Shown here: piece by piece, positions 13,301 through 40,300 of the stretch
How positions within the stretch are numbered: the first letter of the stretch is position 1
How the letters are laid out: the number at the start of each line of letters is the position of its first letter
Source: Leucoraja erinacea
Lineage: Eukaryota
Direction of reading: 5' to 3'
Assembly (NCBI RefSeq): GCF_028641065.1
Contig: NC_073383.1
Location: forward strand, 20,088,001 to 20,152,000
DNA: 64,000 nucleotides
The notes under the pieces: generated by a model
The model's input: only the letters and a program-made list of their open reading frames with translations
Told to the model about the DNA's origin: nothing
Databases searched by the model: none
Translations under genes and position numbers: made by a program

Positions 13301-16300
13301 GATTACTCATGTGAAGCACAGAATGAAGCTGGTGTTAACAGCTGCAACATTGCGATTCAGGTTAAAGGTGTGTAAAGCAATATTTTAAACAGAAATTGAA
13401 CTCTTTGGCATTTGATTGTTTTCTAAGCCACATTGTTATCTTTTACTCTTCAGAACCTCCTTCATTTGTAAAGAAACTTGAATCTGTTGAGATAACTAAA
13501 GCTAGTGATATTACTCTTGAATGTGAGGTGACTGGTACAGCACCCTTTGATGTTTTGTGGTATAAGGACAATAAACAAATTCGACGCAGCAAAAAGTATA
13601 AAATGTTCTCTGACAATTCATTAGCCAATCTTTGCATTTTAACACCCGATACCTCGGATGTTGCTGAATACAAATGTACAGTAAAAAATGATGTGGGAAG
13701 TTGCTCATGCAATTCTACAGTCAGTATGAAAGGTTAGTTATTGTATTTGTGGAAATATATTTTTCTTCTATTTAAATCCAGTGCTCAATTATTTTTGAAG
13801 GAATTCTTACTATTGGATTAAAACATTTCAACAACATAATGAAAAGCCGAAATGAAATTTCATGTTTTATAATCCTTTGTTTTAAATTAGAACCCCCAGG
13901 ATTTATAAAGAAGATTGAAAATATAACCGTATTGTCAGGCAATTCAGTGGTATTCCAATGTCAAGTAAAAGGCTCAAAGCCTATTTACATAACTTGGATG
14001 AAAGATAGAAATATTATCCAAGAAGATGGTAATATTACTTTGTCTTTTGAGAATAATATTGCTGCTCTTCAAATAAATGCTGTTGGAGAAAATCATGCTG
14101 GAAAGTACACGTGCCAGGTCAAGAATGACGCAGGAACTGAGAAGTGCGTTGCCGCATTGTTGGTAGCAGGTCAGTGAGATATTGGTTAGCTATCAGTGAG
14201 TTCAGATTATTTTGAAATGCATCAACTAAAGCCAAATTAATTTTAGTAACATAATGAAGAGATTTATTTTTCCTCATAGAACCAGCAAAAATCACTGAAC
14301 AAGCACAGTCACTCAGTGTGACAGCAGGAAATACAGCAAACCTGGAATGTACTGTAACTGGTACACCAGAACTAAATGTTAAATGTCTTAAGGATGGCAA
14401 TGAAATGGTGTCTAGCAGAAAACACAAAATCAGCTTTGATCATAACGTGATCAGCCTGAAGATTCTTTCTGTTTCTAATGATGACACTGGTGACTATACT
14501 TTTGAAGTCAAGAATAAGTTTGGAATGAGCAGCTGTAAAGCTTCATTGACAGTATTAGGTTAGTGTTTTATTTGCTATTTGAATTTGACTAATTTAAATA
14601 ATGTAGTGCCAATTGACATTTTGCTTAAAACTAATGAAATTGTGTTCACATTGATCATCGGCAAATATAAAGGCTGTAGTTTTTTTTGGGAAACACTATA
14701 TAACAGATTCTTTCTGAATCGAGTATGTTGGTTAGGTCTCGCAACTCTCCAGGCAGTAAGGCATTACACTGGTATTCTTGGATGGTCTCTCGTTCAAGCA
14801 CTGCCAAGGTCGGAGCTTCTCAGCTGGGTACTCACAAGAAATACACAATGTTGCTCCAGATTCCAACATCAGCATGCTCTTTTGTCTTCATACGGTTTAT
14901 TGATCGCCATGGTCTTTGTAATAGCCCACATCCGCAGGGAAATATTGGATTCACCTCGAGAATAACTATTGGCAACTTTGCGATTTCCACACAGAGATGC
15001 AAGTCCTCACGTTTGGAGTCATCAATTCAAAGCCGTTTTTAAATTGAATATATGCCTGGAGACACGGGCAGTGTTTCTCCTTTTAAATTGTTGAAGGGAA
15101 ATTCAATATTCCCTTCAGCAATTTCAATCGAGAAACATTGAAGGAGTGAGGTATTTGAGGTAAATGATATATTGGAATCTATTTGAGTATTTTAGGCAGA
15201 TTCATTCTTTAAACTTTAAAAACATTTTTAACATTTTAAAATATTGAACTGTTTTAAAGTTCAAAAAGGTTTTCAATAGTTTAAAAAAAAAATCTGATTG
15301 TTTCTGTCTCAGCAACATTCAGCAAGAGTGTTTAGCAATTGGCACTTAATAAGCCAAGAATGAGGCATAGCAAGTTGTCAATTTTTTTTCAAGCTTTTCT
15401 GTGGGTAAGGCTATTTGGTTCCACTCTCTAATGCAATCCCATTGCATCACCATAGATTTGCTATCATGGAGAGTGTTGCCATGAGGGAATAAGCTGAATA
15501 CTCTTGTGTGGGAAATCCAATAAACAAATCCAAAATGTTGTATGGCAGTTAGCAATGAGGATGGTCATTGATGATTGCAAATTCCATGTTCCATAATAGT
15601 GGGATAATGAACATCAGCTGTTTTGGGATTTTATTTGAGTGCGTTATTGAAACATGCTAATACATACAAAAGTTTCTTACTCGGAACAAAAAAATAATTG
15701 ATTTAATTAATTTAAAGCATTTGCTCTTTAAGTTGATCAGCTGTGCTTTTGGTATCTTGGACAGATCAACTAATTCCTCCAGTGTTCACACGAAAATTAC
15801 GGAAAATGGACATTGTTTTAGGATCGTCTGTGCAAATGGAATGCAAAGTTTCTGGTTCTCTTCCAATGGTCTTTTCTTGGTATAAGGATTTCAAATTAAT
15901 AACATCTAGTGAAAAATACAAACTATTATATCAAGACAACACAACAACTTTGGAATTTGATCAACTAGAGATTTCAGATCGTGGAACTTATATTTGCAAA
16001 GCAACTAATTCAGTTGGAAGTGATGAATGCAGTGGTTTCTTAAATATAACAGGTTTGAAAGTTTAATTTACTTTCAGCTTAGTTTATATCTTATTCATAT
16101 TTATACGTTTCTACATTTTATGATGTTTGCTTGCTACCATAGCAACAAAAATTAACATGCCAAGCATTTAAACTTGCTTGCAGTTTATTTTAATTATTTT
16201 AATTAATTTTAGATCTGACCTTTAACAATAAAGGATCTATCTATCTATCTATCTAACTTTTCTTCATAAAATTGCAATGGTGTTTTTTTTTTACCTGACT

Positions 16301-19300
16301 TTCAGAGCCTCCAGGTTTTATAGAAAAACCTATGTCTCAGGAAAGCTTACCAGGTTCCACGGTGCGGTTTAGAAGTGTTGTGAAAGGAACAGCTCCAATA
16401 ACTATAAAATGGCTGAAGGATGGCAGGGAACTGATGTCTGGAGCTGACTGTTTCATTTTAAGTGAAGGCTCAACCAGTTTACTTGAGTTGTTTTCAGCCA
16501 AAGTTTCCGATTCGGGTGACTATATTTGTGAAATCAGCAACAGAGTTGGCAGTATCACTTGTGCAGCAAGACTCTTTATCAAAGGTGTGCAATTTATCTG
16601 TGCTTGTTTCACCATTGTGGAATGTTTACATGTGGGCATGAACTTTTTGATTTGTTATATAATTTTCTCTTTGTTATTTTTATTGTTATTTTTTTGCGCT
16701 TTCTTTTGTTCTTTCGTTCGTGTTTTCTTTTGTTCTTTTTGCATTGTCCACGTGGTTTTCTTTATGTTGAATGGATTCATCTTGGACACTTGTATGTATA
16801 GTTACATTTACAACGTTCTTTTCTACAGAGCCTCCATATTTTATTATGAAGTTAGAACCATCAGCAATATTTAAAAAAGGAGATACAGCAAGCTTTCAGT
16901 GTAAAATAACTGGCACACCTGAAATTAAAGTCACTTGGTTCAAGAATCAACATGAAATTAGTTTCAATGAAAAATATGAAATGTCATTTGTTGATTCTGT
17001 GGCATTCTTAGAGATTGTTGATGTAAGCTTGGATGACACAGGGAATTATTACTGTAAAGCCGAAAATGAAGCTGGCAGTGACTCTTGTGACATTGCGGTC
17101 ACAGTTAAAGGTGTGTAAAAATTCTCAGTTAATTGTTATCATTGGTCCACCATCTTTTTCCAGTCATATTGCAAAAACATTTAATTATGGAATAATGAGA
17201 ACCTTGACATAAGGAGCTGATTCTTATAAATTTTTGATTGGTACATTTATCATCTAATTGTTCATTTTTGATTCTGATGGATCCATAAAATAAGATATGA
17301 ATATTTTCTATAATGTTAAAAAATGATTTGATTTATCAATAGGAAGCTGGCTGAAGCAGTCCAGACTTCTGTTAGAAACATAGAAAATAGGAGCAAGAGT
17401 AGGCCATTCGGCTCTTCGAGCCAGCACTGCCATTCAATATGATCATGGCTGATCATCCAGAATCAGTAACCCGTTCCTGCTTTCTCCCCATATCACTTGA
17501 TTCCGTTAGCCCTAAGATCTATATCCAACTCTCTCTTGAATACATCACAACATCAGGACCTTTAGGTGATTTACTAAAGTTAGACACAAAACCTCTCCTT
17601 GCCGCTGAAACCCTCTAATCCAAGCATCATTCTGGTAAACCTAAGATAGACACAAAATGCTGGAGTAACTCAGCGGGTCAGGCATCATCTCTGGAGAAAA
17701 GGAATAGGTGCCGTTTCGGGTCGAGACCCTTCTTCAGAATGAGTCAGGGGAAAGGGAAACTAGATATATAGACGGTTTTATACATAGAAAAACTATACAT
17801 AGTTGGATGCCTTGGCATATTTTGAGTTATGGGTATCCCATCCATGAACTTTGAGGCTCAGAGTTTCTTTGGAGGCCAAAAGAAGTTCCATTTTTTCATT
17901 TTTGCCTCCACTCAGCCAGGTTCCACCAACTCTGGTTGAAAATGTCTTCCACAGATCTCGGCTAAATATCTTATTCTTTACCCAAAATCTTTGCTCTGTA
18001 GTTTTAGATAACTGCTATGTGAAAAATGTCCTACTATTTATCCAATCCATGCCCGTCATAACATTGAACATCATTATGAACCCCTACGTCCCCAGCCTCT
18101 TTTGCTCCAAGGAAGAGAAAAAATCACTCTATTCAATGTCCTGATAGCTGAAACACTCCATCCAAAGAAACATCTCTGTCAATTTTCTCTGCGCCATCCT
18201 TAGATAGTAACGCACCAGAACTGTGCCTCTGCTCTGGCTGGGACCTAACCAGTTCCACCAAAATATCTCTGCTCTTGTATCACGTCCTAGTTAATGAAGC
18301 CAAGTATTAAATATGCCACTTCAAGAATCCTTAGATTTGTACATTGAGATCTCTCTATTTTTAGTTCTCCCATCAGGTATATTCATTGCATTCCATATGT
18401 CCTGCCCTTTATTAGCCCTTCCAAGGTGCATCACCCAGACTCAGCAGTATTATGCTATTGTATTTATCCATTGGCAGTTGCAATGGGCATGCTGCTCCGG
18501 AGATCATTAAATTGTTATTTTAATCGTTTATGCATTGTAACATTCTTGCTGCCAATGGCTTTTTATGAGAGACATTGTGTAAACTTGGAAAAAGTGGGCT
18601 GTGATTCGTAAATCATGATATCATGTTTACTCTTCAGAACCTCCCACATTTACAAAGGAACTTGAACCTGTTGAGGTAGTTAAAGCCAGTGATGTTATTC
18701 TTGAATGTGAGGTGGCTGGTACAGCTCCTTTTGAAGTTTTGTGGTATAAGGACAATAAACAAATACGGCGAAGCAAAAAATACAAAATGATCTCTGACAG
18801 TTCTTTGGTCAGTCTTTGCATTCTAACGTCTGATGGCTCGGATGTTGGGGAATACAAGTGCATGGTAAAGAATGATGTGGGAAGTTGTTCCAGTAGTTCT
18901 GCAGTCAATTTGAAAGGTCAGTTCTAAGAAGTAATCGTAACTAGATGTTGTTTGATATTTATTCAATTATGTAATATTGTATGTTTCAAAGCAGAATATT
19001 TTAAATGATTAAATATCAGTAGTTTCATTTTAAGTTATAACCTGGTATATTCTCTTTACTTTAAACTAGAGCGACCAGCCTTCGTGCAAACAATAGAAAA
19101 TGCAACAGTATTTTCTGGAAATTCTGCTGTATTTCAATGTCTTGTAAGAGGCTCAGTTCCTATTATTACAAGCTGGAGAAAAGATGACAAACGTATCAAA
19201 GAGGATGATAATATTAAAATTTCCTTTCAAAACAATATGGCCACATTACAGATCGTCAAGGCTGAAGAAAATCACAGTGGAAATTATATTTGTCAGGCAA

Positions 19301-22300
19301 AAAATGATGCAGGAACAGCAAAATGCTTTGCCACATTGGCTGTAATGGGTTAGTAGGAAATTATAAACATAAATATTGCCCACAAATAATAATTTTGATT
19401 TGAGTATTTCTCACAGTAAAATTATTACAATTTTTGAATGAATTATATGAATATTAAAGTAAATATGTTATGTTATGGTTAACAAATGGAACATTTTCCA
19501 TGTTGAGTAGCCATTTACTAGGTTGCTTGGTAATATTTGGAATGTAGGTCCTTCTTATCTGGTACATGCCATTGACAAATCTTAGGAAAAGTGCTTCCAA
19601 TATAATAGTTTTGTTATTTTATTATTTTCCCTATAATATCTGTTTTGTGAGGCACTGTATGGTGAACGTATTAACAATGACCACATTCGGTCAGCATGTA
19701 GTAGAAACATTTATTATCATAGTATTATCTAATTTTGAAGATTTGAACCTTCAAGAGACCTACAAATCCACAGTGATGTTTATTCTCCACAAAATTTATT
19801 ATCATAATCTTGGAAAAATATTGCTTAATTTTTGATGTAAATAATATATTTTTCCCACAGAACCTGCAAATATCACAGAAAAAACTGAGTCTCTCACAGT
19901 AACTTCAGGAAATCCAGCTATTCTGGAATGTACAGTAGCTGGAACACCAGTATTAAATGTTGCATGGTTCAAAAATGGAAAGCAGCTAGAAACAAACAGA
20001 AGATATAGATTCAGTTTTGTGAATAAGGTGGCCTGTCTAAAAATGTTGGCTGTTGACATAAACGACAGTGGAGACTATACTTTTGAAGTCCAGAATGAGT
20101 TTGGAGCCAACCAATGTAGTATTTCTTTGACTGTGATAGGTCAGTATGCAAATTGTGTTGATGTTTTGTCTCTTATATCTTTTGATTGCCATAGTGTATT
20201 ACAAAGTTAGAAGTACATCATTGTTTTTTTTTATCATTTTGTTTCTTTATGTTGAGCAGAACAAATAATTCCTCCGTTGTTTACAAGAAAATTAAAGGAC
20301 GTGGGCAGTACTTTAGGGTATTTTGTGCGAATGGAAAGCAAAGTTTCTGGTTCTATTCCAATGAATATAACTTGGTGTAAAGAGGACAAAGAAATATCAG
20401 CTAGTAACAAATACAAGATGCTATTTCAAGAGAACACAATCTCATTAGAAATCAATGAACTAGACTTTTCAGATGGTGGAATTTACGTTTGCAAAGTAGC
20501 AAATTCAGCAGGAAAGGATGAATGCAGTGCTGTCTTAAGTATAAAAGGTTTGAATAGTTGCTTTCCTACATGCCTTTCTCAAATGTAAATACATTCTTTA
20601 CAAAGAGTTTCTATATGTAGTTTGACAAAGTACTGAAGTAGTTAAATAAATGATTTAACCATCTATCTTTATTTTAAGAACACTTAATCTTTTAAAGAAT
20701 ATATTAGTGCATCTTATTTGGAAAGTTAAATTTAATCTGATCATTTTTTCTAGTATAAATTTGAATCTGAGTTAATTGAATCTTTTTTAATTGATTTTTA
20801 GAACCCCCAAGCTTTATAGATAAAATAATATCTCAAGAAGTTATACTCGGTTCTACGGTACAATTTAGGGGTGTTGTGAAAGGAAGCACACCACTATCCA
20901 CAAAATGGTTCAAAGGGGACAGAGAATTGATGCATGGTGTGGCATATTCTATTTGGAATGAAGGCTCGACATACTTTCTAGAATTGCTCTCAGCCAAAAT
21001 ATCTGATGCGGGTAGCTACACCTGCCAAGTTAGCAACGAAGTTGGTAAAGATGACTGTTCTGCAAATCTCCTTGTTAAAGGTGCGCAATTCTGGCTTTTT
21101 ATACTCTGTTGTGAGTTGTATAAATAGTTTTTTTTTTTGCTTTGTTACCTTGAAAATTTAGTTACATTATTTTGTTTTCTTGACGGTTTGTTACCTCGTA
21201 CATTCAACAACATCATTTTATCTTCCTGATGGCTGACTGGATATTGCCAAAGAAATGCATACTTGCAAGAAAGAAGTGGGCTTGGTGGCCTTGTGGCATT
21301 CAAATGTCAGTTGATTGTCCGACTCAGTGCTTTTGGAAGTCCTGGAGTTTCCCCATTAACTGCAAGATAAAGCACGATTTAGTGGTGGAGAATTCTGTCT
21401 TGCTTCAGGAAACAAAAAGGAGAATTTTCCTCAGTGAAATTAAGGACAATGATGGAGATTTTAAGGATTCTTATAGCCTGGTCTCACATCACATGGCTGA
21501 GTAATAAACAATTTTACTGGATGCAGTTATGGGGAACATGAAAAAAGGAATATTGTTTCCCTGATTTAAGAGGGGGCTCAATTTGAGTAGGTTTGGAGAA
21601 TTTGATTAGTGTTTTGTGGCCAATTATTTATGCATACACATTCGTTGGTTTTGATTACCGTATAAATGTATGTTGAAATATATAATATTTTGGCTTTTAG
21701 AACCTCCAAGCTTCATTAAAAAGCTGCAATCGCCAACCGTCCTAAAAAAAGGAGTTTCAGCACATTTTGAGTGCAGTTTAAGGGGCACACCTAACATTAA
21801 AGTTACGTGGTACAAAAATGGCGATGAAATTATGGCCAGTGAAAAGTTTATGATGACATTTGATGATGCTGTGGCAGTTCTTGAGATTATTGATGTGATT
21901 CTGGACGACAGTGCGTGCTACATCTGTGAGGCACAAAATGAAGCTGGTAGTGAGAGCTGCAGCACTGAAGTTGAAGTTAAAGGTCTGTAATAATTCATTG
22001 AGACTATAAATTCTTTACTTTCTTGTTCAGGGATATTGATAGTATCTTGATTCATTAAGATGTTTTTTATTGTGATTACTTTTTAGAACCACCGAGCTTT
22101 AGACGAAAACTTCAATCCACTGAGATAGTTAAATCCAGTGATATTTCTCTTGAATGTGAGGTGGCTGGTACAGCTCCCTTTGAAGTTATGTGGTATAAAG
22201 ACAATAAACAAATTCGACGTAGTAAAAAATACAAAATGATCTCTGATGGTTCTTTAGTTAGTGTTTGCATTCTAAATTCTGATACCACAGATGTTGGTGA

Positions 22301-25300
22301 ATACAAATGCATCGTACAAAATGATGTGGGATGTTGTTCCTGCAGTTCTACAGTCAGTTTGAAAGGTCAGTTTTACAAGTCCATCAGAAAATATTTCCTT
22401 CTGAAGTGTGTGATGATGGCAGAATCATTTAATTATTTATTTGGAAATTCAATGCTGAACTATTTGTAAACTGTCATGAAAAGGCGATATAACTCCATTT
22501 AGTCATGTTATTATTTATTTTAAACTAGAACCCCCAGGATTTATAAAGAAGATTGAAAATATAACATCAGTATCAGGCAATTCAGTTGTATTTCACAGTC
22601 AAGTAAAAGGCTCAAAGCCTATTTATTTAACTTGGATGAAAGATAAAGATGTTATCGAAGAAGATGGTAATATTACTTTGTCTTTTGAGAATAATATTGC
22701 TACTCTTCAAATAAATGCTGTTGGAGAAACTCATGCTGGAAAGTACACGTGCCAGGTCAAGAATGACGCAGGAACTGAGAAGTGTTTTGCCACATTGTTG
22801 GTAGCAGGTCAGTGAGCAATTAATAGCTTGTTATTTCCCTGCATTTCATTTTTCTCATTATAATTCAATGCAGGTATTTTGCCATGCATTGACCAAAATG
22901 AAATTAATGGTAATGACATATAAAAGAGATTTTTATTCTCATAGAACCAGCAAAAATCACAGAACAAGCACAGTCAATCAGTGTGACGGCAGGAAATACA
23001 GCAAACCTGGAATGTGCTGTAACTGGTACACCAGAACTAAATGTTAAATGTTTTAAAGATGGTAACGAAATGGTGTCTTGTCGAAAACACAGAATCAGCT
23101 TTGAGAATAATGTGGTCAGCATAAAGATTTCTTCTGTGTCTAATGATGACACTGCTGAATATACTTTTGAAGTCAAGAATCAGTTTGGAATGAGCAGCTG
23201 TAAAGCTTCATTGACAGTATTAGGTTAGTATTTTATTTACAATTGGAAGTCAGCTAATCTACATAACTAATGCATTTAAATTAATGGTTATTAAATAAGG
23301 AAATTGCAATTGCATAAAACACAAATTTATATAAAGATAATGTTATAACTTTCCAATTGGAAATTAGTGATGATGGGATATCTAAGAGCCACTGCTGTGA
23401 GAAATTTGAAATTAATTTTGGCTTTCAGTAGTCACTATATATATCATATCAATATATCAATACACATGATAATTCTTAAAACTTTAAAAAGCATTATAGA
23501 TTTTGATTAATTTTAATATTTGCTGTATGAATTGATTGGCTGTGCTTTTATCATTTTACCTTGGACAGATCAACTAATTCCCCCATTGTTTAAACGAAAA
23601 TCACGCAAAATGAACAGTGTTTTAGGGTCTTTCATACAAATGGAATGCAAAGCTTCTGGTTCCCTTCCAATGAGCTTCTCATGGTATAAAGAACGCATTT
23701 TAATAACAACTAATGAGAAATACAAAATATTATCTCAAGATAACACAACAACTTTGGAAGTGAATCAACTAGAGATTTCAGATCATGGAACTTATATTTG
23801 CAAAGCAACCAATTCAGTGGGAAGTGATGAATGCAGTGCTTTCTTAAATATAACAGGTTTGAAAGATGAATTTGCTTCCAGCTTAATTTATATCTTTTTT
23901 GTATTTATACACTTAATTTTTTTGATTTTTGCCTCTTACTCTAAGGAAAGCTACTATATTTAGAGCTTAAAATTTGATTGCAAATTATTGTAATTTCTTA
24001 TTTTATTAGTAACTTTTTATTTTTTTTAATGTACAATATCGTATAAACAATGTACTCTTGGGAACCAATTGTATTTTTTCCACCTGACTTTCAGAGCCTC
24101 CAAGCTTTATAGAAAAACCTATGTCCCAGGAAAGCTTACCTGGTTCTACAGTGCATTTTAGAAGTGTTGTCACAGGAACTGCTCCAGTAACTATTAAATG
24201 GCTGAAGGATGGCAGGGAATTGATGTCCGGAGCTGATTGTTTCATTTTAAATGAAAGCTCAACAAGTTTACTTGAGTTGTTTTCAGCCAAAGTTTCTGAT
24301 TCAGGAGACTATATTTGTGAAGTCAGCAACAAAGTTGGCAGTATCACTTGTGCAGCAAGACTCTTTGTAAAAGGTGTGCAATTTGTCTTTACATGTTTAA
24401 CCATTCTGGAATGATTTTGAATGTTGTGTGCAGTATTTGTGTGTAATATGTTTTGTGATGTTTTTATTATTAATGTTCCTTTTGTGCCGCGCATTGTCTT
24501 CTTTCATTCTTTTTATTGTTTTATATGTATCTAAACTGTTTGTTATGTTGAATAGTTATCTTTTTGTATTTTAATATGTTTCATGATTTGTAATAACTTT
24601 GTTTTAACAGAACCTCCATATTTTATTAAGAAGTTAGATCCAACAGCAATATTAAAAAAAGGAGAGACAACAATTTTTGAGTGTAAAGTAACTGGCACAC
24701 CTGAAATCAAAGTAGCTTGGTTCAAGAATTATCGTGAAATTAGTATCGATGAAAAATGCAGAATGACATTTGTTGATTCGGTGGCAATTTTAGAGATTGC
24801 TGATATAAACTTGGATGACACTGGAAATTATTCCTGCAAAGCCCAAAATGAAGCTGGCAGTGAATCTTGCGACATTATGGTCACTGTTAAAGGTGTGTGA
24901 ATATTCCCATTTTCATTGTCCATGATTGGTCAATAAGTCTGTCCAGTCATGTTTCACCTTTTTGTTCAATTAGAACCTTTATTTTAAACACTGACTGTTC
25001 TGCTATTTGAAATGGGCATTAAAAGTAACAGCTTGACAATTGATTTGTGAACCTATATCTAATCATTTTAATAGAATGTTCCAAAACTGACTCCTAAAGA
25101 CTGAATTTAATTTCTGGAACACCGCTGGTTAAGTGGAAAGCCCTCATTTGGAGACCAAGACTTTCTTTATTGGGGCAGAAGGAGCTCTCCCACTTCTTCT
25201 GTACCTATATCGAAAGATATTTAAATTCTCTTGATGACGTTGCTACTTTCCTAGCAATATTTATTCATTTGCATCATTAGTTTCCTGTTGTCTGATATGA

Positions 25301-28300
25301 TATAAATTCCAATTCTTGCACTCGTATCCGCACCCTTCCCTAACTAATTTATATTGAAGATTCATGGGCACCCGAGGGAAAACTGATATGGCTAAATATT
25401 ATTTTAAAGTTGTGGAAATGTATGAAATAACAAAAAAGTTACCAGCATATTACATTTTATTAATCCATGTTGAATGATAGCTGTAGCTTATCCCTAACAC
25501 ATTAAAATAAAAATCATATGGACTTTTGCTTCAATGGTTGATGTTGGGAATCATTTTGTAAACCTGAACCTCAGCCCTTGTGATTTGTAAACTATATTAT
25601 CGTGTTTGCTCTTCAGAATCTCCTACATTTGTGAAGAAACTTGAACCTGCTGAGGTAGTTAAATCTAGTGATGTTACTCTTGAATGTGAGGTGGCTGGTA
25701 CAAGTCCTTTTGAAATTTTGTGGTATAAGGACAATAAACAACTTCGTCGCAGTAAAAAGTACAAAATGATCTCCGACATTTCTTTAGTCAGCCTTTGCAT
25801 TCTAACATCTGATACCTCAGATGTTGGCGAATACAAGTGTATTGTAAAAAATGATGTGGGAAGTTGTTCTTGCAGTTCTACTGTCAGTTTGAAAGGTCAG
25901 TCATGTCCTTATTCGAGTTTCATGGATATGCATGTTATTTATTTCATTAACAATTACATATTAAGTAATACTGACTTTTTTCATTCATGGTTTAAATATA
26001 ACAAGATATTTTTTTCAAATTAGAGCGACCAACCTTCATACAAACAATAGAAAATGCAACAGTATTTTCTGGAAATTCAGCTGTGTTTCAATGTCATGTA
26101 AGAGGATCAGGACCCATAAATACAAGTTGGAAAAAAGATGACAAACGTGTCAAGGAAGATGAAAATATTAAAATTTCCTTTGAAAATAATATTGCCACAT
26201 TGCAGATCATTAATGCTGAGGAAAATCACAATGGAAATTATATTTGTCAGGCAAAGAATGATGCAGGAACAACAAAATGCTTTGCTACTTTGATTGTAAT
26301 GGGTTAGTAAGAAATTATAAATACAAGTATTATCTGCATAATACGCATTTCATGGAATTTATATTACCACAAAAACTATTATAACAAAACTTAAATAGTG
26401 CGCAACAAAGTGAGGGATGTTGTAACTGGAAATGGGACATTTCCATGTTGAGTAGCTAGCACTGGATGCAGCATCATAAGTAGAATATTGTTTCATTTGT
26501 AATTTTCTATGGTACCCAATCAATCATCATCAAATCTTCAAAAGAGCACTGCCATTGTATCAAAGAGGCAATTTGTTCTTATTGCTCAAGTAATTTGAGG
26601 AAGGACATCCTTGTGATTGAGGCAGTGCAGCGTAGGTTCAGGAGATCATATGAGGAAAGATTGAAAAGACTTAGATTGTATTCACTGAAGTTTAGAAGGA
26701 TGAGGGGTAATCTTATAGAAACATATACAATTATAAAAGGACTGGACAAGCTAGATGCAGGAAAAAACTTTCCCAATGTTGGGTGAGTCCAGAACCAGGG
26801 GCCACAGTCTTAGAATAAAGGGGAAGTCATTTAAGACTGAGGTGAGAAAAAAGTTTTTCACCCAGAGAGTTGTAAATTTGTGGAATTCCATGCCACAGAG
26901 GGCAGTGGAGGCCAAATCACTGGACGGATTTAAGAGAGAGTTAGATAGAGCTCTAGGGGCTAGTGGAATCCAGGGATATGGGGTGAAGGCAGGCACGGGT
27001 TATTGATTGGGGATGATCAGCCATGATCACAATGAATGGCGGTGCTGGCTCAAAGGACCGAATGGTCTCTTCTTGCACCTATTTTCTATGTTTCTAAGTG
27101 TGTTTCTGAATGAGATTGATAACTGATTATCCGGTTAAGGCTAAATTTGTACAATCAGTGCAATGCTGCCAGCATCTTGACTGGGATTGCTAAATCTAAT
27201 TTAACGATGCACCTTCAGCAGGAATGCAAAATTACATAGGTCCTTATTTGTTGTGAGGAATCCCATCTATTGACAGCTTGCTCTGCTAAAATTTATTAGC
27301 TTACAAAAGCAATTCGATCAAATAGTAATGTTCTCGTGATTTAAATGATGTAATTTTTCCACAGAACCTGCAAATATCATAGAAAAAACGGAGCCACTCA
27401 CAGTGACTTCAGGAAACCCAGCAATTTTGGAATGTACCGTAGCTGGTACGCCAGTATTAAATGTTGCGTGGTTCAAAAATGGAAAACAACTGGAGTCAAA
27501 CAGAAGATATAAATTGAGTTTTGCAAATAAGATAGCCAGGTTAAAATTTTTGTCTGTTGAAATGGATGACAGTGGAGACTATACTTTTGAAGTCCAGAAT
27601 GAGTTTGGAGCTAACAGCTGCGATATTCCTATGACTGTATTAGGTCAGTAATTACTTCTTGTTAATAGCTTTTTTTTCCTAAAACATCAGATAATACTGG
27701 AATTTATCACAGATTTTGTAATATTTGACACAGAAACGTTAATGTTTTTATTTATCCCTTTATATGAACAGAACAAATAATTCCTCCATTGTTAACAAGA
27801 AAATTAAAGGAAATAAGCAGTACTTTAGGATCTTTAGTGCGAATGGAATTCAAAGTTTCTGGTTCTATACCAATGAGCATTACTTGGTACAAAGAGGACA
27901 ACGAAATACCGACTAGTAACAAATACAAAATGCTATTTCAAGAGAACATAATTTCATTAGAAATCATTGAACTAGACTTCTCAGATGATGGAATTTACAC
28001 TTGCAAAGCAGCAAATTCAGCAGGAAAAGATGAATGCAGTGCTGTCTTAAGTGTAAAAGGTTTGAAATATTCCTTTGTCGCATTTCTTTCTCGTCAATAT
28101 GAAAAGCAAATATTGGCTTTCTTTACAAAAGAGTTTGCATATGTCATTAGCTGCAGTATTGAAATATTTAAATAAGTGAATCCGCCAATTCTAAATTTTG
28201 TTTAGCATTCTTACTTTTGAAGGCTCTGTAATTCATAAATTTAACGATAATCTGAACATTTCATCCAGTTTATACATATATATATATATAACCCTGAGTT

Positions 28301-31300
28301 AATCAAACATTTTCTATTGATTTTTTTAGAGCCCCCAAGCTTTACAGATAAAATAATGTCCCAGGATGTTGTACTTGGTTCTTCAGTACAATTTAGAGGT
28401 GTTGTAAAAGGAAGCACACCGCTATCTACAAAATGGTTCAAAGGGGACAGAGAATTGATGCATAGTATGGCATATTCTATTTGGAATGAAGGCTCGTTAT
28501 ATTTCCTAGAATTGCCTTCATCTAAAATATCGGATGCGGGTAATTATACCTGCCAAGTTAGCAACGATATTGGTACAGATGCCTGTTCTGCAAACCTGCT
28601 TGTTAAAGGTGCGCAATTATGGCTTTGTTCTCCTGTTTTGATATATGCAAAACAGTTTTCTTGCTTTACCATCTTGAATGTTTAAATTTCTTTTTCTTGA
28701 CGGTTACTGTACTTAAGTGGCAGTATATTGCACTGCTGTCCATTGTGAGAATGAGGTATGGTAGTCTTAAAGCATTGAAATTTTTAGGCTTGTTATTCTA
28801 TATCATGCCATACTACAATTTTGTTCTGTTAACTAAGGCAAAGCACCATACCAATGTTGGGGAATACTATATAACCATATAACCATATAACAATTACAGC
28901 ACGGAAACAGGCCATCTCGGCCCTACAAGTCCATGCCAAACAAATTTTTTTTCCCCTTAGTCCCACCTGCCTGCACTCGTACCATAACCCTTCATTCCCT
29001 TCTCATCCATATGCCTATCCAATTTATTTTTAAATGATACTAATGAACCTGCCTCCACCACTTCCACTGGGAGCTCATTCCACACCGCCACCTCTCTCTG
29101 CGTAAAGAAGTTCCCCCTCATATTACCCCTAAACTTCTGTCCCTTAATTCTGAAGTCATGTCCTCTTGTTTGAATCTTCCCTATTCTCAAAGGGAAAAGC
29201 TTGTCCACATCAACTCTGTCTATCCCTCTCATCATTTTAAAGACCTCTATCAGGTCCCCCCCTTAACCTTCTGTGCTCCAGAGAATAAAGACCTAACTTA
29301 TTCAACCTATCTCTGTAACTTAGTTGTTGAAACCCAGGCAACATTCTAGTAAATCTAATATATAATGTTTAATTTTTGAAAAACTGGCAAATTAGACAGT
29401 GTCCAACATAGAACATAGAAAATAGGCACAGGAGGAGGCCACTTGGCCCTTCGAGCCAGCACCGCCATTCATTGTGATCATGGCTGATCGTCCTCAATAA
29501 CCCGTGCCTGCCTTCTCCCCATATCCCTTGACTCCACTAGCCCCTAAAGCTCTATCTAACTCTCTCTTAAATTGATCTCTTAAATCCATCCAGTGATTTG
29601 GCCTCCACTGCCCGCTGTGGCAAGGAATTCCATAAATTCACAACTCTCTGGGTGAAAAAGTTTTTTCTCATCTCAGTCTTAAATGACCTCCCCTTTATTC
29701 GAAGACTGTGGCCCCTGGATCTGTCCACTGTAATTTAATTGTACCATCCAATCCTAAAGTGACAATGATGACAATTTTGAAGAAATTTTACTAGACTGCC
29801 CCACTCCAACTGTTGAACCATAGGAAGCATTTTATCGGGATGCATCACAGCATGGTTTGGGAACAGCTCCATCTAAGACCCCATAAAATTGCAGCGAATT
29901 ATGGACGCAGCCTAGACCATCACATAAACCAACCTCCCTTCTATTAACTCCATTTATACCCCACTCTGCCTCAGCAAAGCCAGCAGCATAATCAGTTGCA
30001 CACCCTGGCCACTCTTTCTTCTCCCCACTCACATCAGGCAAAAGGTATAGAAGTGTGAAAACACACAGCTCCAGATTCAGGGACAGTTTCTACCCAGCAG
30101 TTATCAGGCAACTGAATTATCCTGCCACAACCAGAGAGCAGTGCTGAACTACTATCTACCTCTTTGATGACCCTCGGACTATCCTTAATCAGACTTTGCT
30201 AGCCTTACCTTGCACTGAACGTTATTCCGTTATGTATCTATACACTGTAAATGGATCGATTGTATCACGTATTGTCTTTCTGCTGACTGGTTAGCACACA
30301 ACAAAAGCTTTTCACCTCGGTATACCTGACCATAAACTAAACATTGAAGGAATCTTAATAGCATTTAAAAACAAAATACTGTTTGCTCTAGTTATGATAT
30401 TAAAACATGATTTTTATTAAATTAGTAACTTGAGCAGTCAATCTTGTTTAAACAGTTATTTATAATTGTTTCATTGGTTTCAAGTACTATTGAATATCCT
30501 TAATATGTTTTTTTTAATTTATAATATTTTGATTTCTAGAACCCCCTAGTTTCATTAAAAAACTGAATTCTTCAACAATAATGAAGGAAGGTGCCTCAGC
30601 ACGTTTTGAGTGTATTGTAACTGGAACACCTGATATCAAAGTTTCCTGGTATAAAAATGGTTCTGAAATTATTGCCAGTGCCAAATATACAACATCATTT
30701 GATGGTTCTGTGGCAATTCTTGAGATTATTGACATGATTCTAGAGGACAGTGCCCATTACGTGTGTGAAATACGAAATGAAGCCGGCAGTGACAACTGCA
30801 GCACCGAAGTTGAAATTAAAGGTCTGTAATAATGTCCAAATTCCTAACAAATGACATCAGCTACTTTTTTGAGCAAGGATAATGTTAGTTTCTGTGTTTT
30901 TTTAATTTTGATTTCTTTATCATGATTTTAGAACCTCCCAGTTTTAGAAGGAAACTTCAGTCTGCTGAGGTTATAAGAAACAATGGTGTTATTCTTGAAT
31001 GTGAATTGGCTGGTACAGGTCCCTTTGACGTAATGTGGTACAAGGACAATAAAAGAATTCCACCAAGTGAAAAATACAAGATGATCACAAAGAATGTTTT
31101 AAGTAGCCTTCATATTTTGAAGGTGGATGTCTCACTTGTTGGCGAATATAAATGCACAGCAAGCAATGATGTGGGAAGCTGTTCCTGCAGTTGTATTGTC
31201 AGTTTAAAAGGTTAGTTACATGGTGGTAGTGGTGTACCTTTTGTCATTTTTAATGAATGTATTTCAAGTAAAAAGGAATACACCAGTTTTAAGTAAAATG

Positions 31301-34300
31301 GAATACTGGAGGCATATTGCGATTTTTGCAGCTAACTTGTACATTTAATTTAAACTTTTTTAATGATCAGTTCCATAATGCAGCATATTTTGCCATTATA
31401 CTATAATTTGGAAAGAGGGTAGAGCATTTCATTCATATTTATATGTATACCTCTTTATCTTCAACTAGAACCCCCATCATTTGTGAAGAAGATTGAAAAT
31501 GTTACAACGTTTGTTGGAAATTCTACTGGCTTTCAGTGTCTTGTAAAAGGCTCAGAGCCTTTATCAATTAATTGGATGAAAAATAATGTAGATATCAAAG
31601 AAGATGAAAATATATCTATTTCCTTTGAAAACAATCATGCAATGCTGAAAATTGCAGCAGTTGAAGCAAAAGATGGTGGGAAATACATCTGCCAGGCCAA
31701 AAATGATGCAGGGATTGAGAAATCCTATGCCACATTGATAGTAACAGGTTGGTCAGGAATATTAACAAATATGATTGGCTGATGTGTAAATATTTTTTTT
31801 ATTTCTCTTCAAATTTATTTATCATACTAATGTTAAAAAGAAGACAGGATTAAAATATTAAATTACTCTAATCAATTAGCATAATATTTTCTCTTAACAG
31901 AACCTGCAAAAATTATTGAGAGAGCAAAATCATGCAACATAACTGTACAAAATCCAGCAGTTTTGGAGTGCACTGTGGCAGGCACACCAGATCTAAATGT
32001 TAAATGGTTTAAAGATGGAACGGAGCTCACATCCAGCAGAAAATGTAAATTGAGCTTTGAAAATAATGTGGCTAGTCTAAAGATTCAGTCAGTAGAGAAG
32101 TCGAATAGTGGTGAATATACTTTTGAGGTCCAGAATGAATTTGGAGTTGACAGCTGCAAAGCTTCCTTGGCTGTATTAGGTTAGTATTTTTATTTGTATG
32201 TGAAAAATAGAATACAGTAATCAAAGCAACTTTGCTCTTTTAGGTTGACTTTTGCATCTCAAGCTTACAAGTTGTGTTCTGTATTGTACAGATCAATTGA
32301 TTGCTCCAACATTTACAAAAAAATTGAAGGACTTGGGCATTGCACTAGGCTCTTCTGTGAGCATGGAGTGCAAAGTATCTGGCTCTGTTCCAATGACCAT
32401 TCTTTGGCGTAAAGATGGAAAGGAGATCATGGATAGTAATAAATATAAACTATCACAGCAAGATAACACCTTATCTTTGGAACTTAATCAACTAGAAATC
32501 GCTGATTGTGGAATTTATACCTGCAGAGTATCAAATATAGCAGGAACTGATGAATGCCGTAGCAAGCTGACTGTTAAAGGTGTGACTGCCTTTGCATTTT
32601 TACTCATACATTTGGCAAAATTTCGGATTTGTCATATTTTAACACTTAAATGTCTTATGATTGAAATAACTATTTTAAATTTATTAATGGTTCAAAATTC
32701 AAAATTTAGAAATTTATGCTCTTTCTTGCAACAAATATGTTTTTCTTCAATGAATTTTAGAGCCACCAAGATTTATTACAAAACCAATGTCACAGGAGGT
32801 TCCCCCACGCTCTACAGTGCTGTTCAAGAGTGATGCAAAAGGAACACCTCCTCTGTCTTTCAAATGGTTTAAGGATGACAAAGAGTTAAATCCTGATGGA
32901 ACATGTTGCATTGTGACAGAAGTTTCATCCAGTTTTGTGCAACTTTATTCAGTAAAACATTCTAATACGGGATATTACACTTGCCACGTCACCAATGATG
33001 TTGGCACAGATTCTTGTACAGCAAAATTGTTTGTAACAGGTGTGGAATTCTTTGTTGTGTGGGTGTATATTATCAGTGTCTTGTTTGTTATTTGCTGTTA
33101 ATGTCTTTTCAGATTCCAAGTCTTCCAATTTGTACAAATCTCGTTTTATGTGTATTCTTTGTTAGTGTCTTTTGTTCTTTGAGTTTAATTGTGTAATCAT
33201 CTTATTCTCTTTATCACATCAATTCTACATTATCTTTTTGTGCTCTTCGTGATCTCAATAATATAATGTACACTCTTCTTTAAATTTTCTTTATATGAAA
33301 TACAGTAAAATTCTAGTTAATATACATGGGCCTTTTCAAAACTTTTGGAGCATTCTCATATGATTTGTGTTAATGATTCAAATTCCTTCCAAATTTCACA
33401 ATTCTACTTTCCAAAACATAATCTTCTTGTAACTCAAGCACTAAATGTGTTGTATTTTGGTTTCCTAGAACCTCCGTCTTTCATCCAGAAACTGGAACCA
33501 TCCAAAGTCCTGAAGAAGGGAGAATCAGTGCATTTTGAGTGCAAAGTGACTGGCACACCTGAAATCAAAATTTCGTGGTTCAAGAATGATACTGAAATCA
33601 GAGATGGTGACAAATACAAAATACATTTTGATAATTCTATAGCAGTTCTTGAAATTAATGATACTGGTGTAGAAGACAGTGGTGATTACATTTGTGATGC
33701 TCAAAATGACGCTGGAAGTGTCAGCTGCAGTGTAGCACTAAATGTCAAAGGTAGGTAGTTATTTTCTGTTACAAATGATAAAGGCTTTCTTGGTTATAAA
33801 TAACTATGTCATCATAAATACAAAAATGATACAACTTATGCTCTTCTTCCAGAACAACCTGTTTTCAATAAAATGCTTGAGACAATGGATGTAATAAAAA
33901 GCTCTGATGTCATTCTGCAATGCGAATTCAGTGGTACATCTCCTTTTGAAGTTACTTGGTACAAAGATAAAAGGCAAATCCGAGGAAGTAAAAAGTACAA
34001 AATTACTTATGAAAATCATGTAGCAAGTCTTTATATTCTTAAAGTGGAGTCACCTGACATAGGGGAATACATGTGCATGGTCAAGAATGATGTGGGGAGT
34101 ATTAATTGCACTGGCACATTAAATCTAAAAGGTCAGTATATTTTCCATGTTTTATATTTAAATTTTGCTATACCAGTTTTGGGAAATAATTTCTGGAAGT
34201 TTATGTTGCACACTTAACATATACTTATTTAATTCTTCAGAACCACCCCTATTTGTGAAGAGACTTTCAAACATTTCTTCTGTGTTTGGAGAGTCTGCGA

Positions 34301-37300: not shown

Positions 37301-40300
37301 CCCGTTCCCCCAACACAATATTCCACCACTCACCTGTTCCCCCAACGCAACCCGTTCCACCAACGCAATATCCTACCGCTCACCCGCCCCCAACTGCACA
37401 GGTGCGACAGATTCCCACTCATTCCCCAGCACTCCCTCCCCCGGGTCCTGTTCCCCAATGCAATATTCCACCACTCACCCGTTCCCCCAATGCATTTGCT
37501 CCACCAACGCAATATTCCACCACTCACCAATACCCCCCCCCATCTGCGCAGGTGCGGCTCATTTCACCTCATCCCCAGCACTCCCCTTCCTCTTCTTCAC
37601 CCTCCCTCTTTTTAAATTTTAAAACATTTACTTTTTACTTTTAAAAATACAATTCTCCTTCCCCTGCCCCTGCCCATTACAAAGTTACAAATGACAGGAC
37701 TCAGTGTCCTGTCAATTGTACCATTTTAACGGGATAAAATGTGAATAACTTGTAAAGTAAAACATGAATCTGAACAAATCTTTGGTACACAACACCACAG
37801 GGCAATGGTGAGTATGGTGGTCCAAAATTTGTAGTGCTATCGTGTACTGTTTTGCCATAATTTCAGGATCACACACACATACACACACACACACACACAC
37901 ACTCACAGACATAATAACAAACAAGATGAGAGTTTTAGTAATATATATTACTAGACCAAGTGGTACCAGTTGCGTCCCGTTCCCCCAACACAATATTCCA
38001 CCACTCATCCGTTCCCCCAACACAACCCATTCCACCAACACAATATTCCATCACTCACCCATAGCCCCCAACTGTGCAGGTGCGGCTCATTTCCCCTCAT
38101 CCCCAGCACTTCCTCCCCCTCCTCTTCACCCTCCCTCTTTTTAAGTTTTAAAAGATTGACTAAAATCCAATTCAACTACCCCTGCCCCTGCCCCTGCCCG
38201 TTACAATGTTACAAATGACAGGACTCAGTGTCCTGTCATTTGTAACATTGCAAAGGCAGGGGCAGATAAAGTGCAATTGAATTTTTTTGTGAAAAGTTAA
38301 ATTTTTAAAGTTTAAAATGTGAATAACTTGTAAAATATATCTGAACAAAACTTTGATATACCATACCACAGGACGCTGGTGAATAAGGTCATCCAAATAT
38401 TGTAGCGCTATCATGTACAGTTTTGGCGTAATTTCAGGATCACACTCATCACAGCCAAACAGACAGACAAACAGACAAAATCACAGACATAATAACAAAC
38501 AAGAGGAGAGTTTTAATAATGTATAGATGTGGGTAACATCATTTTGCTGGAGTTACAAGTATATATTTTTGCAACTGTTTTCCTCTCTATCTTCACCAGA
38601 ACCAGCAGTATTCCAGAAAAAATTGAAAGATTCTATTGTGATACTGGGAAAATCAGTTTGTCTTGACTGCATATACTCTGGTACCCCAGAAATCAAAGTA
38701 CATTGGAAGAAGAATGGGTTAGATATAGTCCAGTCTGAAAAGCATATTATAACTACCACTGAAACCTCTTGTATTTTGGAGATTCTCAACACCATCAGAG
38801 ACGATGGTGCAACATATATGTGTGAAGTAGAAAATGATGCTGGAACTGACACTTGTCATGCTGAAGTGAACATATTGGGTTTGTTTCCTTTCAATTTCTT
38901 TTAGCTGCAGATTAAAAATCAAAGCTTTTCTCGTTTCTTTAAAAAAATATTTGATGTACATTTTCTTCAATCACTGATACGTTTTTTTTCTTCTTAGAAC
39001 CACCAACATTTGTCCAAAATTTAGAGCCTCTGGAAATAACAGTTGGTGATTCAGGATCTTTTCAATGCACACTTAGTGGAACACCTGAAATTAAAGTAGC
39101 TTGGTACAAAGGAGACACAAAACTGAGAGCCACCCCAAATTGCAAAATGGAATTTGTAAACAATATTGCAAAATTGGAATTGAAGAAAGTAACAATGAAT
39201 GACTGTGGAGAATTTATGTGCAAAGCTGAAAACAAAATAGGTGTATGTTCATCAAAGGCGGTGTTCACTGTACAAGGTGATGTTCTTTGGTAGATTAATT
39301 GGTATTTGTGGAGAATGTATATATTTATGCTGGAGCTCTTTGAACTTTTAAAGCTTTATAATCTCATTATATTAATTCATTCCATTCCGGTTTATTTTAC
39401 AGAACGCAAAACGGCACCTTCTTTTGTAAGAAAACTTAAGAATATGGAAGTAACTCTTGGTCTTCCAATAACATTCGAGTGTTGCACGACTGGTTCAGCT
39501 CCTATTGAAACTTCTTGGTTTAAGGATGGTATAAAACTGCTCCCTGGAGAAAACTTAAATATATCTTTCATGGAGAATGTAGCATCTCTTCAAATTCTTA
39601 AAACCGAGTTGGATCATGCTGGTGAATACAGTTGCAAAGCATCTAACATAATAGGAGATGCTTCATGCAGTTCCAGATTAATTCTTAAAGGTAAAATGGG
39701 TTAAATAATTACTAATTTGACTTCTTCAATGTTATAATATTGACATTTTAGTATCTGCTTTCATCTAACATTGCTAGATGTTAGTACAGTGTACCTTGCT
39801 GTTTATACTTTTACAATCAAATATAATTATATTTTTGTTATGTCTTTAGAGCCTAGAGTTGCCCCTGTATTTGACAAAAGATTACAACCAGTGGAAGTTA
39901 CAGCTGGGCAAAGTGTGGATCTTGAATGCCACTTAACTGGCTCTCCACCAGTTAAAGTTACTTGGTTGAAGGATGGCAAAGAGATGCGATCAGGTGGCAA
40001 TTACAAGATATCTTATGTTGAAAATACACCTCACCTAATTATTCTGAAAGCAGACAAGGGAGATGCTTGTCAATACATTTGTGAGGCCAGCAATGATATT
40101 GGAAAGGATTCATGCGAAACTGACGTGACTGTGAAAGGTATCAATCAATAACAAATACAACTCTTTATATATACTCTGAGAGCCCAGACTTAACTAATTT
40201 CAAAGGGTAATGTTTTTTTCACATCTTCAATATGATTCGCACTGGTTACTTGTTCAAGAAAGATTGCAGATGCTGGAAAAATCGAAGGTAGACAAAAATG

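What the first reader, a model, noticed from the sequence alone, without database searches (positions are those of the whole stretch)
13454..31210. 12-exon tandem duplication with a chimeric junction exon
Seen: exon pairs 12 apart are close paralogues (C3/E3, C4/E4, C5/E5, C6/E6, D1/F1 to D6/F6, E1/G1), including splice-flank sequence, while pairs 6 apart are far more divergent. E2 (22087-22365) begins like G2 (EPPSFRRKLQS, with a similar short upstream intron starting gtctgtaataa) and continues like C2 (EI.K.SDI.LECEV...IRRSKKYKM.SD). Inference: unequal crossover about 11-13 codons into a position-2 exon added two 6-Ig super-repeats (3372 coding nt) to the titin spring.
Basis: partly seen in the sequence, partly recalled or inferred. 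Interest (0 to 1): 0.7.

Follow-up and report, generated by a model that had tools for sequence, protein, structure and literature searches.

The report
Old 12-exon doubling in ray titin
The muscle-spring gene titin of this ray-like fish carries two back-to-back, spliced copies of a 12-exon block with a hybrid exon at the seam, likely left by one misaligned crossover; it is an ordinary way for titin to lengthen and likely explains why a shark has eight six-domain repeats where a chimaera has six.

Summary
The duplication is real. The window holds titin's middle-Ig spring. Eleven exon pairs 12 apart (C3/E3 to E1/G1) are 76-93% identical against a median of 66%, and 12 intron pairs align in register. 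Trees pair the copies, Mobula has both, and the chimaera's single copy falls outside. With one more repeat upstream there are eight 6-Ig repeats, as published for whale shark (elephant shark six; PMC12241362).

E2 is a mosaic: upstream intron and first 27 nt G2-type, the rest C2/D2/F2-type, switch at 22114-22126. It is spliced in RNA-like contigs of two studies.

- C2, D2, E2 and F2 are all 81-87% alike, so not all 6-apart pairs are divergent.
- The E2 body cannot be assigned to C2 specifically (83% against 87% to D2/F2).
- E1/G1 is much more diverged than the other pairs.

An intra-exonic unequal crossover is most likely (0.62); later gene conversion over a G2 copy is not excluded. The repeat count is published; the 12-exon step and the seam are not in that paper's text. 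The scan noted this duplication before in other genomes.

The parts
13481..22113 (+). First copy of the duplicated unit (about 8.6 kb): body of C2, C3-C6, D1-D6, E1 and the first ~27 nt of E2
22114..30958 (+). Second copy (about 8.8 kb): body of E2, E3-E6, F1-F6, G1 and the first ~27 nt of G2
13454..13732 (+). Exon C2, position-2 Ig exon; candidate donor of the E2 body; 83% identical to D2
13891..16584 (+). Exons C3 (13891-14169), C4 (14280-14558), C5 (15765-16052), C6 (16306-16584)
16829..21080 (+). Exons D1 (16829-17110), D2 (18638-18916), D3 (19070-19348), D4 (19861-20139), D5 (20260-20547), D6 (20802-21080)
21701..21982 (+). Exon E1, paralogue of G1; the most diverged of the 11 pairs (76% DNA, 67% protein)
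21983..22086 (+). 104-nt intron E1-E2, homologous to G1-G2 (30822-30931)
22087..22365 (+). Exon E2, mosaic Ig exon: G2-type start, C2/D2/F2-type body; spliced to E1 and E3
22114..22126 (+). Interval of the ancestry switch (exon nt 28-40); in the model, the gap between strands A and A' or strand A' itself
22366..22528 (+). 163-nt intron E2-E3: last 70 nt C2-C3-like, first 60-70 nt not assignable
22529..24373 (+). Exons E3 (22529-22807), E4 (22945-23223), E5 (23569-23856), E6 (24095-24373)
24611..28608 (+). Exons F1 (24611-24892), F2 (25617-25895), F3 (26024-26302), F4 (27365-27643), F5 (27772-28059), F6 (28330-28608)
30540..31210 (+). Exons G1 (30540-30821) and G2 (30932-31210); G2 is the donor type of the E2 start

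Best explanation
This titin gene holds two head-to-tail, spliced copies of a 12-exon Ig block with a mosaic exon (E2) at the seam, likely made in one step by an unequal crossover between the position-2 exons C2 and G2 about 10-14 codons into the exon. SHOWN: collinear copies with introns; both copies in Mobula; single chimaera orthologues outside the pairs; eight 6-Ig repeats here; ancestry switch at E2 nt 28-40; splicing of E2. INFERRED: chromatids of a six-repeat array (Z A B C D G) mispaired by two repeats. All exons are phase 1 and both partners are 279 nt, so a crossover inside them kept the frame and made a foldable hybrid domain with a G-type strand A and a C-type core. The result is 1124 more residues in the extensible middle-Ig segment, which would give long muscle isoforms more slack. 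C2 and D2 had likely been homogenised by gene conversion before or around the event, which is why the E2 body resembles C2, D2 and F2 alike; some later conversion likely kept inner exons closer than the edge pair E1/G1. The event postdates the chimaera split and predates the split from Mobula; that it is the same event as in sharks is likely but not shown.
For: Identities and background. Intron pairs in register, with the switch from G-type to C-type flanks across E2. Protein trees join C/E at positions 3-6 and D/F at positions 1 and 3-6 in starred clades; the chimaera domain lies outside D6+F6 (96/98) and E1+G1 (90/93). Mobula hypostoma has both D4-E1 (P0168) and F4-G1 (P0001); copies group by orthology (100/99, 97/96) and joining the window's two copies is rejected, p-AU 7e-9. 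An upstream repeat Z brings the count to eight, as in whale shark, against six in elephant shark (PMC12241362). At 42 sites where C2=D2=F2 differ from G2 and E2 matches one side, E2 is G-type at nt 10, 19, 27 and then C/D/F-type at 36 of 39; the 3 G-type sites in the body equal the 2-3 seen in control exons; permutation p 0.004. GT..AG joints E1-E2 and E2-E3 in 3 of 3 RNA-like runs, and one contig of run X9 spans 20906-22555. The E2 model is a complete Ig fold, pLDDT 95.
Against: The E2 body is closer to D2/F2 (86.5-86.9%) than to C2 (83.1%), and its donor site reads like D2/F2. The first 60-70 nt of the E2-E3 intron are not C-like (z -0.5 to 0.5). AU does not reject E2+G2 for the body either (p 0.10). 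In DNA the first 13 codons of E2 are no closer to G2 (74%) than those of D2 are (74%); the likeness is in amino-acid-changing sites. The exon-only mosaic test is liberal: 51 of 1512 triplets reach p<=0.01, and E2/F2/G2 ranks second, not first. A single event predicts equal ages, yet E1/G1 is an outlier. The one shark fragment (Mustelus) falls outside both ray copies (87/87).
Confidence: 0.62

Rival explanations
1. Same 12-exon duplication, but the crossover lay downstream, in the 5' part of the intron after exon 2 or late in the exon. E2 began as a full G2 copy and its body was later overwritten by gene conversion from D2, F2 or C2, with the tract starting at nt 28-40.
For: C2 and D2, six apart and not products of this duplication, are 83% alike, so conversion at position 2 did occur. 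The E2 body is closer to D2/F2. C-type intron similarity begins only in the last 70 nt of E2-E3. The Mustelus fragment ends in a wholly G2-type exon that could be an unconverted E2; its copy identity is unresolved.
Against: Needs one more event. The D/F excess is mostly C2-private change (18 sites); sites that E2 shares with only one exon are C 5, D 5, F 3. No patch of G-type sites remains in the body (3 of 38, as in controls). E2+C2 is not rejected (p-AU 0.15).
Confidence: 0.27
2. The ray duplication is independent of the shark one: rays and whale shark each reached eight repeats on their own.
For: Mustelus lies outside both ray copies in the tree of four joined domains (87/87; 91/89 without E1/G1). 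At positions 3-6 the window's paralogues (80-84% protein) are as close as or closer than window-Mustelus pairs (74-82%).
Against: Placing Mustelus with either copy is not rejected (p-AU 0.06-0.08). At position 2 Mustelus groups with F2 (92/79). E1/G1 (67%) is as deep as window-Mustelus (71-74%). The same count of eight in whale shark is simplest as one event followed by homogenisation.
Confidence: 0.15
3. Two separate 6-exon duplications, or a transposon-mediated copy as proposed for 6-Ig blocks in PMC12241362.
For: The paper describes duplication in six-domain blocks and suggests a transposon. High-copy repeats lie in the D1-D2, F3-F4 and F6-G1 introns.
Against: Similarity peaks at offset 12 (11 of 42 domain pairs at 70% or more) and not at offset 6 (3 of 48, position 2). 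The seam is flanked by introns of 104 and 163 nt without high read depth. The repeats seen are in one copy only, judged by intron lengths. A long-decayed element cannot be excluded.
Confidence: 0.04
4. Assembly artefact (haplotype or mis-join shown as a tandem copy).
For: None found.
Against: Copies differ by 7-24% with different intron lengths; both occur in Mobula; a contig of run X9 spans the seam and spliced contigs join D6-E1-E2-E3.
Confidence: 0.005

Closest known systems
6-Ig super-repeat expansion in the middle-Ig segment of cartilaginous-fish connectin/titin (Hanashima et al. 2025, PMC12241362)
   Same: Same segment, one Ig domain per exon, eight 6-Ig plus one 10-Ig super-repeat as reported for whale shark (elephant shark six, human and zebrafish three).
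   Different: The text speaks of six-domain blocks and suggests a transposon; it has no hit for 'gene conversion', 'crossing', 'twelve', '12-ig' or 'skate'. Here the step is 12 exons out of register with the repeat (starting inside position 2), with a mosaic exon at the seam and homogenised position-2 exons. Its Fig. 4 tree was not visible to me and may already show the pairing.
Triplicated PEVK exon block of human TTN (LINE-1-associated; passages of PMC6469411 and PMC12241362)
   Same: Multi-exon tandem gain in titin's elastic region.
   Different: Recent, PEVK exons, LINE-1 at the block; here old (76-93% identity), Ig exons, no element seen at the seam.
Mammalian triplication of the 10-Ig super-repeat; solved fragment PDB 3B43
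   Same: Same exon classes; E2 matches the fifth domain of 3B43 best (93 bits).
   Different: An independent gain in another lineage with a ten-domain unit.
Non-allelic homologous recombination that makes hybrid exons in tandem arrays (general mechanism, recalled)
   Same: Head-to-tail copies, one hybrid unit at the seam, later homogenisation that spares the edges.
   Different: Here the homology used is coding sequence of same-class exons about 70% alike today.

Membership tests
Titin/connectin middle-Ig 6-Ig super-repeats | One I-set Ig domain per symmetric exon | tested here: met
   Phase-1 exons of 279/282/288 nt, open frames; Ig fold for E2
Titin/connectin middle-Ig 6-Ig super-repeats | Six exon classes repeating in fixed order | tested here: met
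   Offset-6 mean identity 55% against 31% for neighbours; orthologues by class
Titin/connectin middle-Ig 6-Ig super-repeats | Homology to titin and place before the 10-Ig super-repeat and terminal Ig pair | tested here: met
   Best PDB hit titin 3B43; named titin-like hits; repeats Z, A, B, G match Callorhinchus fragments in order; H1-H6 plus four exons follow
Titin/connectin middle-Ig 6-Ig super-repeats | Included in skeletal muscle, skipped in heart | not testable with these tools
   Exons are spliced together in RNA-like contigs but no tissue is on record
Tandem duplication by unequal crossover | Collinear head-to-tail copies including introns | tested here: met
Tandem duplication by unequal crossover | Outgroup with a single copy | tested here: met
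   Chimaera domains outside D6/F6 and E1/G1 and six repeats in the paper; only 2 of the 12 positions had a chimaera orthologue, the C3-D5 orthologues were not retrieved
Tandem duplication by unequal crossover | One seam where ancestry switches from the downstream to the upstream unit | tested here: met
   G-type up to E2 nt 27, C-type from the last 70 nt of the E2-E3 intron at the latest
Tandem duplication by unequal crossover | The 3' part of the hybrid descends from C2 specifically | tested here: inconclusive
   p-AU E2+C2 0.15, E2+D2 0.13, E2+F2 0.32, E2+G2 0.10
Concerted evolution (gene conversion) among exon copies | Copies group by species, or non-sister copies are abnormally alike | tested here: inconclusive
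   C2/D2 83%. Species against orthologue site patterns: C6/E6 3:1, D6/F6 2:0, D5/F5 2:4, D4/F4 0:4, D1/F1 1:7, E1/G1 0:11. Long identical tracts significant in 1 of 21 pairs
Transposon-mediated exon-block duplication | Element at the unit boundaries | tested here: not met
   Seam introns 104 and 163 nt, no high-depth repeat there; no repeat library was searched

The most novel reading that the evidence does not exclude
The position-2 exon is a recurrent, transposon-free recombination substrate that resizes the elasmobranch titin spring: it was homogenised across C2-F2, hosted the seam of a 12-exon jump, and may have hosted the same jump twice, once in rays and once in sharks. The 12-domain step keeps nearly all close twins 12 domains apart and no neighbours above 46% identity.
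Probability: 0.2. Interest if true: 0.55.

Novelty: new variant of a known kind. Interest (0 to 1): 0.3.

Why it matters
It gives the concrete step behind a published difference (six against eight 6-Ig super-repeats) and argues against six-domain, transposon-driven steps for this gain. It shows a natural hybrid Ig domain kept in a force-bearing chain, with the seam at the A/A' break of the fold. The interest is for specialists in titin and repeat-protein evolution; the mechanism is familiar and no new function is implied.

Tried and rejected
- Three homologue searches and one representative search gave seven cartilaginous-fish fragments.
- No RNA holder listed on record. X1-X4 are guessed RNA and X4 is flagged 'probably DNA', though it shows GT..AG joints. 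Raw RNA run X15 gave almost no exon cover and is uninformative.
- In one search the joint table was flooded by intronic repeats, so C-repeat joints were not seen. In one search, 12 of 13 introns appear as GT..AG joints; E4-E5 only as loose ends. The joint 'goes back 6442' is read as F3 spliced to F4, which lies outside the laid stretch (inference).
- The DNA tree of position-2 bodies had no starred branch.
- Longest-identical-tract test: 1 of 21 pairs at p<0.05 (D4/F4, 0.019), no better than chance.
- Convergence of the E2 N-terminus on G2 was considered and judged unlikely because the upstream intron, acceptor and AGY serine codon are also G-type.
- Look-ups of earlier findings by place and by sequence returned nothing.
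- Paper searches found no description of a 12-exon unit or hybrid exon in elasmobranch titin; the library lacks most subscription papers. The one supplement of PMC12241362 was listed but not read, and its figures are not held; Fig. 4 may bear on novelty.
Full report
What the window is. The + strand carries a run of one-domain Ig exons, all phase 1, with AG/GT ends and lengths 279, 282 or 288 nt in a period of six (exon A3 was found separately). The best solved match of exon E2 is titin 3B43. Named homologues are titin-like fragments of Mobula (75-91% best identity per domain), Mustelus (67-87%) and Callorhinchus (64-79%), so the organism is likely a ray or skate. One more six-exon repeat (Z) lies just upstream in L001 and matches the first chimaera repeat. 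The array is thus Z, A-G (eight 6-Ig repeats) followed by H1-H6 and four more exons, a 10-Ig repeat. Hanashima et al. 2025 (PMC12241362; parts 1-3 of 5 read: abstract to methods; figures not held; supplement not read) report six 6-Ig repeats in elephant shark, eight in whale shark and three in human and zebrafish.

The duplication. Eleven exon pairs 12 apart are 76-93% identical in DNA; the median of 216 same-position pairs is 66%. Among domain pairs, 11 of 42 at offset 12 reach 70% protein identity, 3 of 48 at offset 6, 1 of 36 at offset 18, and 0 of 53 neighbours (maximum 46%). All 12 intron pairs align at one end at least, while four control pairs outside the unit give z of 3.1 or less. Per-position protein trees place C with E and D with F, and E1 with G1. 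The unit codes 3372 nt, 1124 residues, and spans about 8.6 and 8.8 kb.

Age. Mobula hypostoma has both D4-E1 (P0168) and E6-G3 (P0001), and Mobula birostris has a C3-D1 fragment whose last domain is only 71% like the M. hypostoma F1. In a tree of four joined domains the copies group by orthology (100/99 and 97/96), and holding the window's two copies together is rejected (p-AU 7e-9). The chimaera's single domains fall outside D6+F6 and E1+G1; only these 2 of 12 positions had a chimaera orthologue. So the event lies after the chimaera split and before the split from Mobula. The one shark fragment sits outside both ray copies at 87/87, but joining it to either copy is not rejected (p 0.06-0.08). 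A shared event with sharks is therefore likely from the whale-shark count, not shown.

The seam. Upstream of E2 everything is G-type: intron D6-E1 matches F6-G1, exon E1 matches G1, intron E1-E2 matches G1-G2 and not C1-C2. Downstream, the last 70 nt of intron E2-E3 match C2-C3 and E3 matches C3. Inside E2, at sites where C2, D2 and F2 agree against G2, E2 is G-type at nt 10, 19 and 27, then C/D/F-type at 36 of 39 (permutation p 0.004). The first of those, nt 29, is a single silent site and the run becomes solid at nt 41, so the switch lies in nt 28-40 (22114-22126). The exon-only test is liberal (51 of 1512 triplets at p<=0.01), so the case rests on the flanks as much as on the exon. In the AlphaFold model (pLDDT 95) strands run 3-6 and 11-13, so the switch (residues 9-13) falls in the gap after strand A or in A' (strand names recalled). 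That a swap of strand A alone is easy to tolerate is my inference.

It is real and used. Spliced contigs join E1-E2 (255 letters on the shorter side) and E2-E3 (26 letters) at GT..AG in 3 of 3 RNA-like runs from two studies, and 12 of 13 introns between D2 and F3 appear as such joints; intron-only bins have no cover in X1 and X2. A 1652-nt contig of run X9 spans 20906-22555 with 8 other letters and 2 gaps. The runs are RNA by guess only and have no tissue on record.

Position-2 exons C2, D2, E2 and F2 are all 81-87% alike, though C2 and D2 are not products of this duplication; the Mobula and Mustelus F2-type domains share the same body type, so this homogenisation is old. As a result the E2 body is 83.1% like C2, 86.5% like D2 and 86.9% like F2. 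Most of that gap is C2-private change (18 sites); sites shared with a single exon are 5, 5 and 3, and AU tests reject no parent. A crossover inside E2 needs one event and fits; conversion over a former G2 copy needs two but is of a kind that evidently happened here. I put these at about 0.62 and 0.27. E1/G1 is more diverged than the other ten pairs (21 of 62 conserved codons differ at the third base, against 6-21%; p 0.002). This suggests that inner exons were partly homogenised later; site patterns hint at this for position 6 (C6/E6 3:1, D6/F6 2:0) but not for D1, D4, D5 or E1, and the counts are small.

Function. The added domains lengthen the serially linked Ig spring by 12 folded domains, roughly 50 nm at about 4 nm each (figure recalled). 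In elephant shark this segment is kept in skeletal muscle and skipped in heart, so the gain would act on long skeletal isoforms; not tested here. The paper cites a coaggregation risk for adjacent domains above about 70% identity; a 12-domain step avoids that, as one search shows.

Known and new. The count is published; the text I read describes six-domain blocks and suggests a transposon and does not mention conversion, crossing over or a 12-domain unit. Six paper searches found no such description. Of PMC9529554 and PMC6469411 I saw only passages. The scan's own notes record the same 12-exon doubling and hybrid exon in other shark- and ray-type genomes; I saw them after my analysis, they are unchecked AI notes, and I did not use them as support. 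Verdict: a real, well-mapped case of a known way in which titin grows; new in detail, modest in interest (0.3).

Noticed in passing
window 39403-49769: The last two exons of the 10-Ig repeat and the next Ig exon are repeated: 39403/47586 (82%), 39850/48207 (86%), and 41720/44297/49479 (84-86%). The middle copy keeps only its third exon intact plus a 95-nt fragment of the second at 42881-42975, so a triplicated trio has partly decayed here.
   Followed up: partly
window 14280-14558 and 22945-23223: C4 and E4 have cysteine where the other Ig exons have the core tryptophan (NVKCLKDG, NVKCFKDG); the Mobula birostris orthologue has it too.
   Followed up: no
window 15765-16052, 20260-20547, 23569-23856, 27772-28059: Position-5 exons C5/D5/E5/F5 are about 75% alike across classes with low synonymous difference (0.28-0.35), perhaps an older homogenisation like that at position 2.
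   Followed up: no
window 13454-13732, 18638-18916, 22087-22365, 25617-25895: The homogenised position-2 domains share an extra cysteine in the (S/N)LCIL or SVCIL motif, kept in Mobula and Mustelus; E2 has six cysteines, the most of the 54 domains counted.
   Followed up: no
window 1852-2130 (A3) and 31469-31747 (G3): In the control scan A3 sided with G3 at 11 of 11 informative sites in its first 35 nt (p about 0.001 before correction), a possible older mosaic or chance.
   Followed up: no
window 17373-18211, 26591-27100, 28876-30340; also about 2450-3460 (-) and 56950-57590: High-copy SINE/LINE-like repeats in introns, present in one copy of the duplication only; reverse-transcriptase-like reading frames elsewhere in the window (class names recalled).
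   Followed up: no
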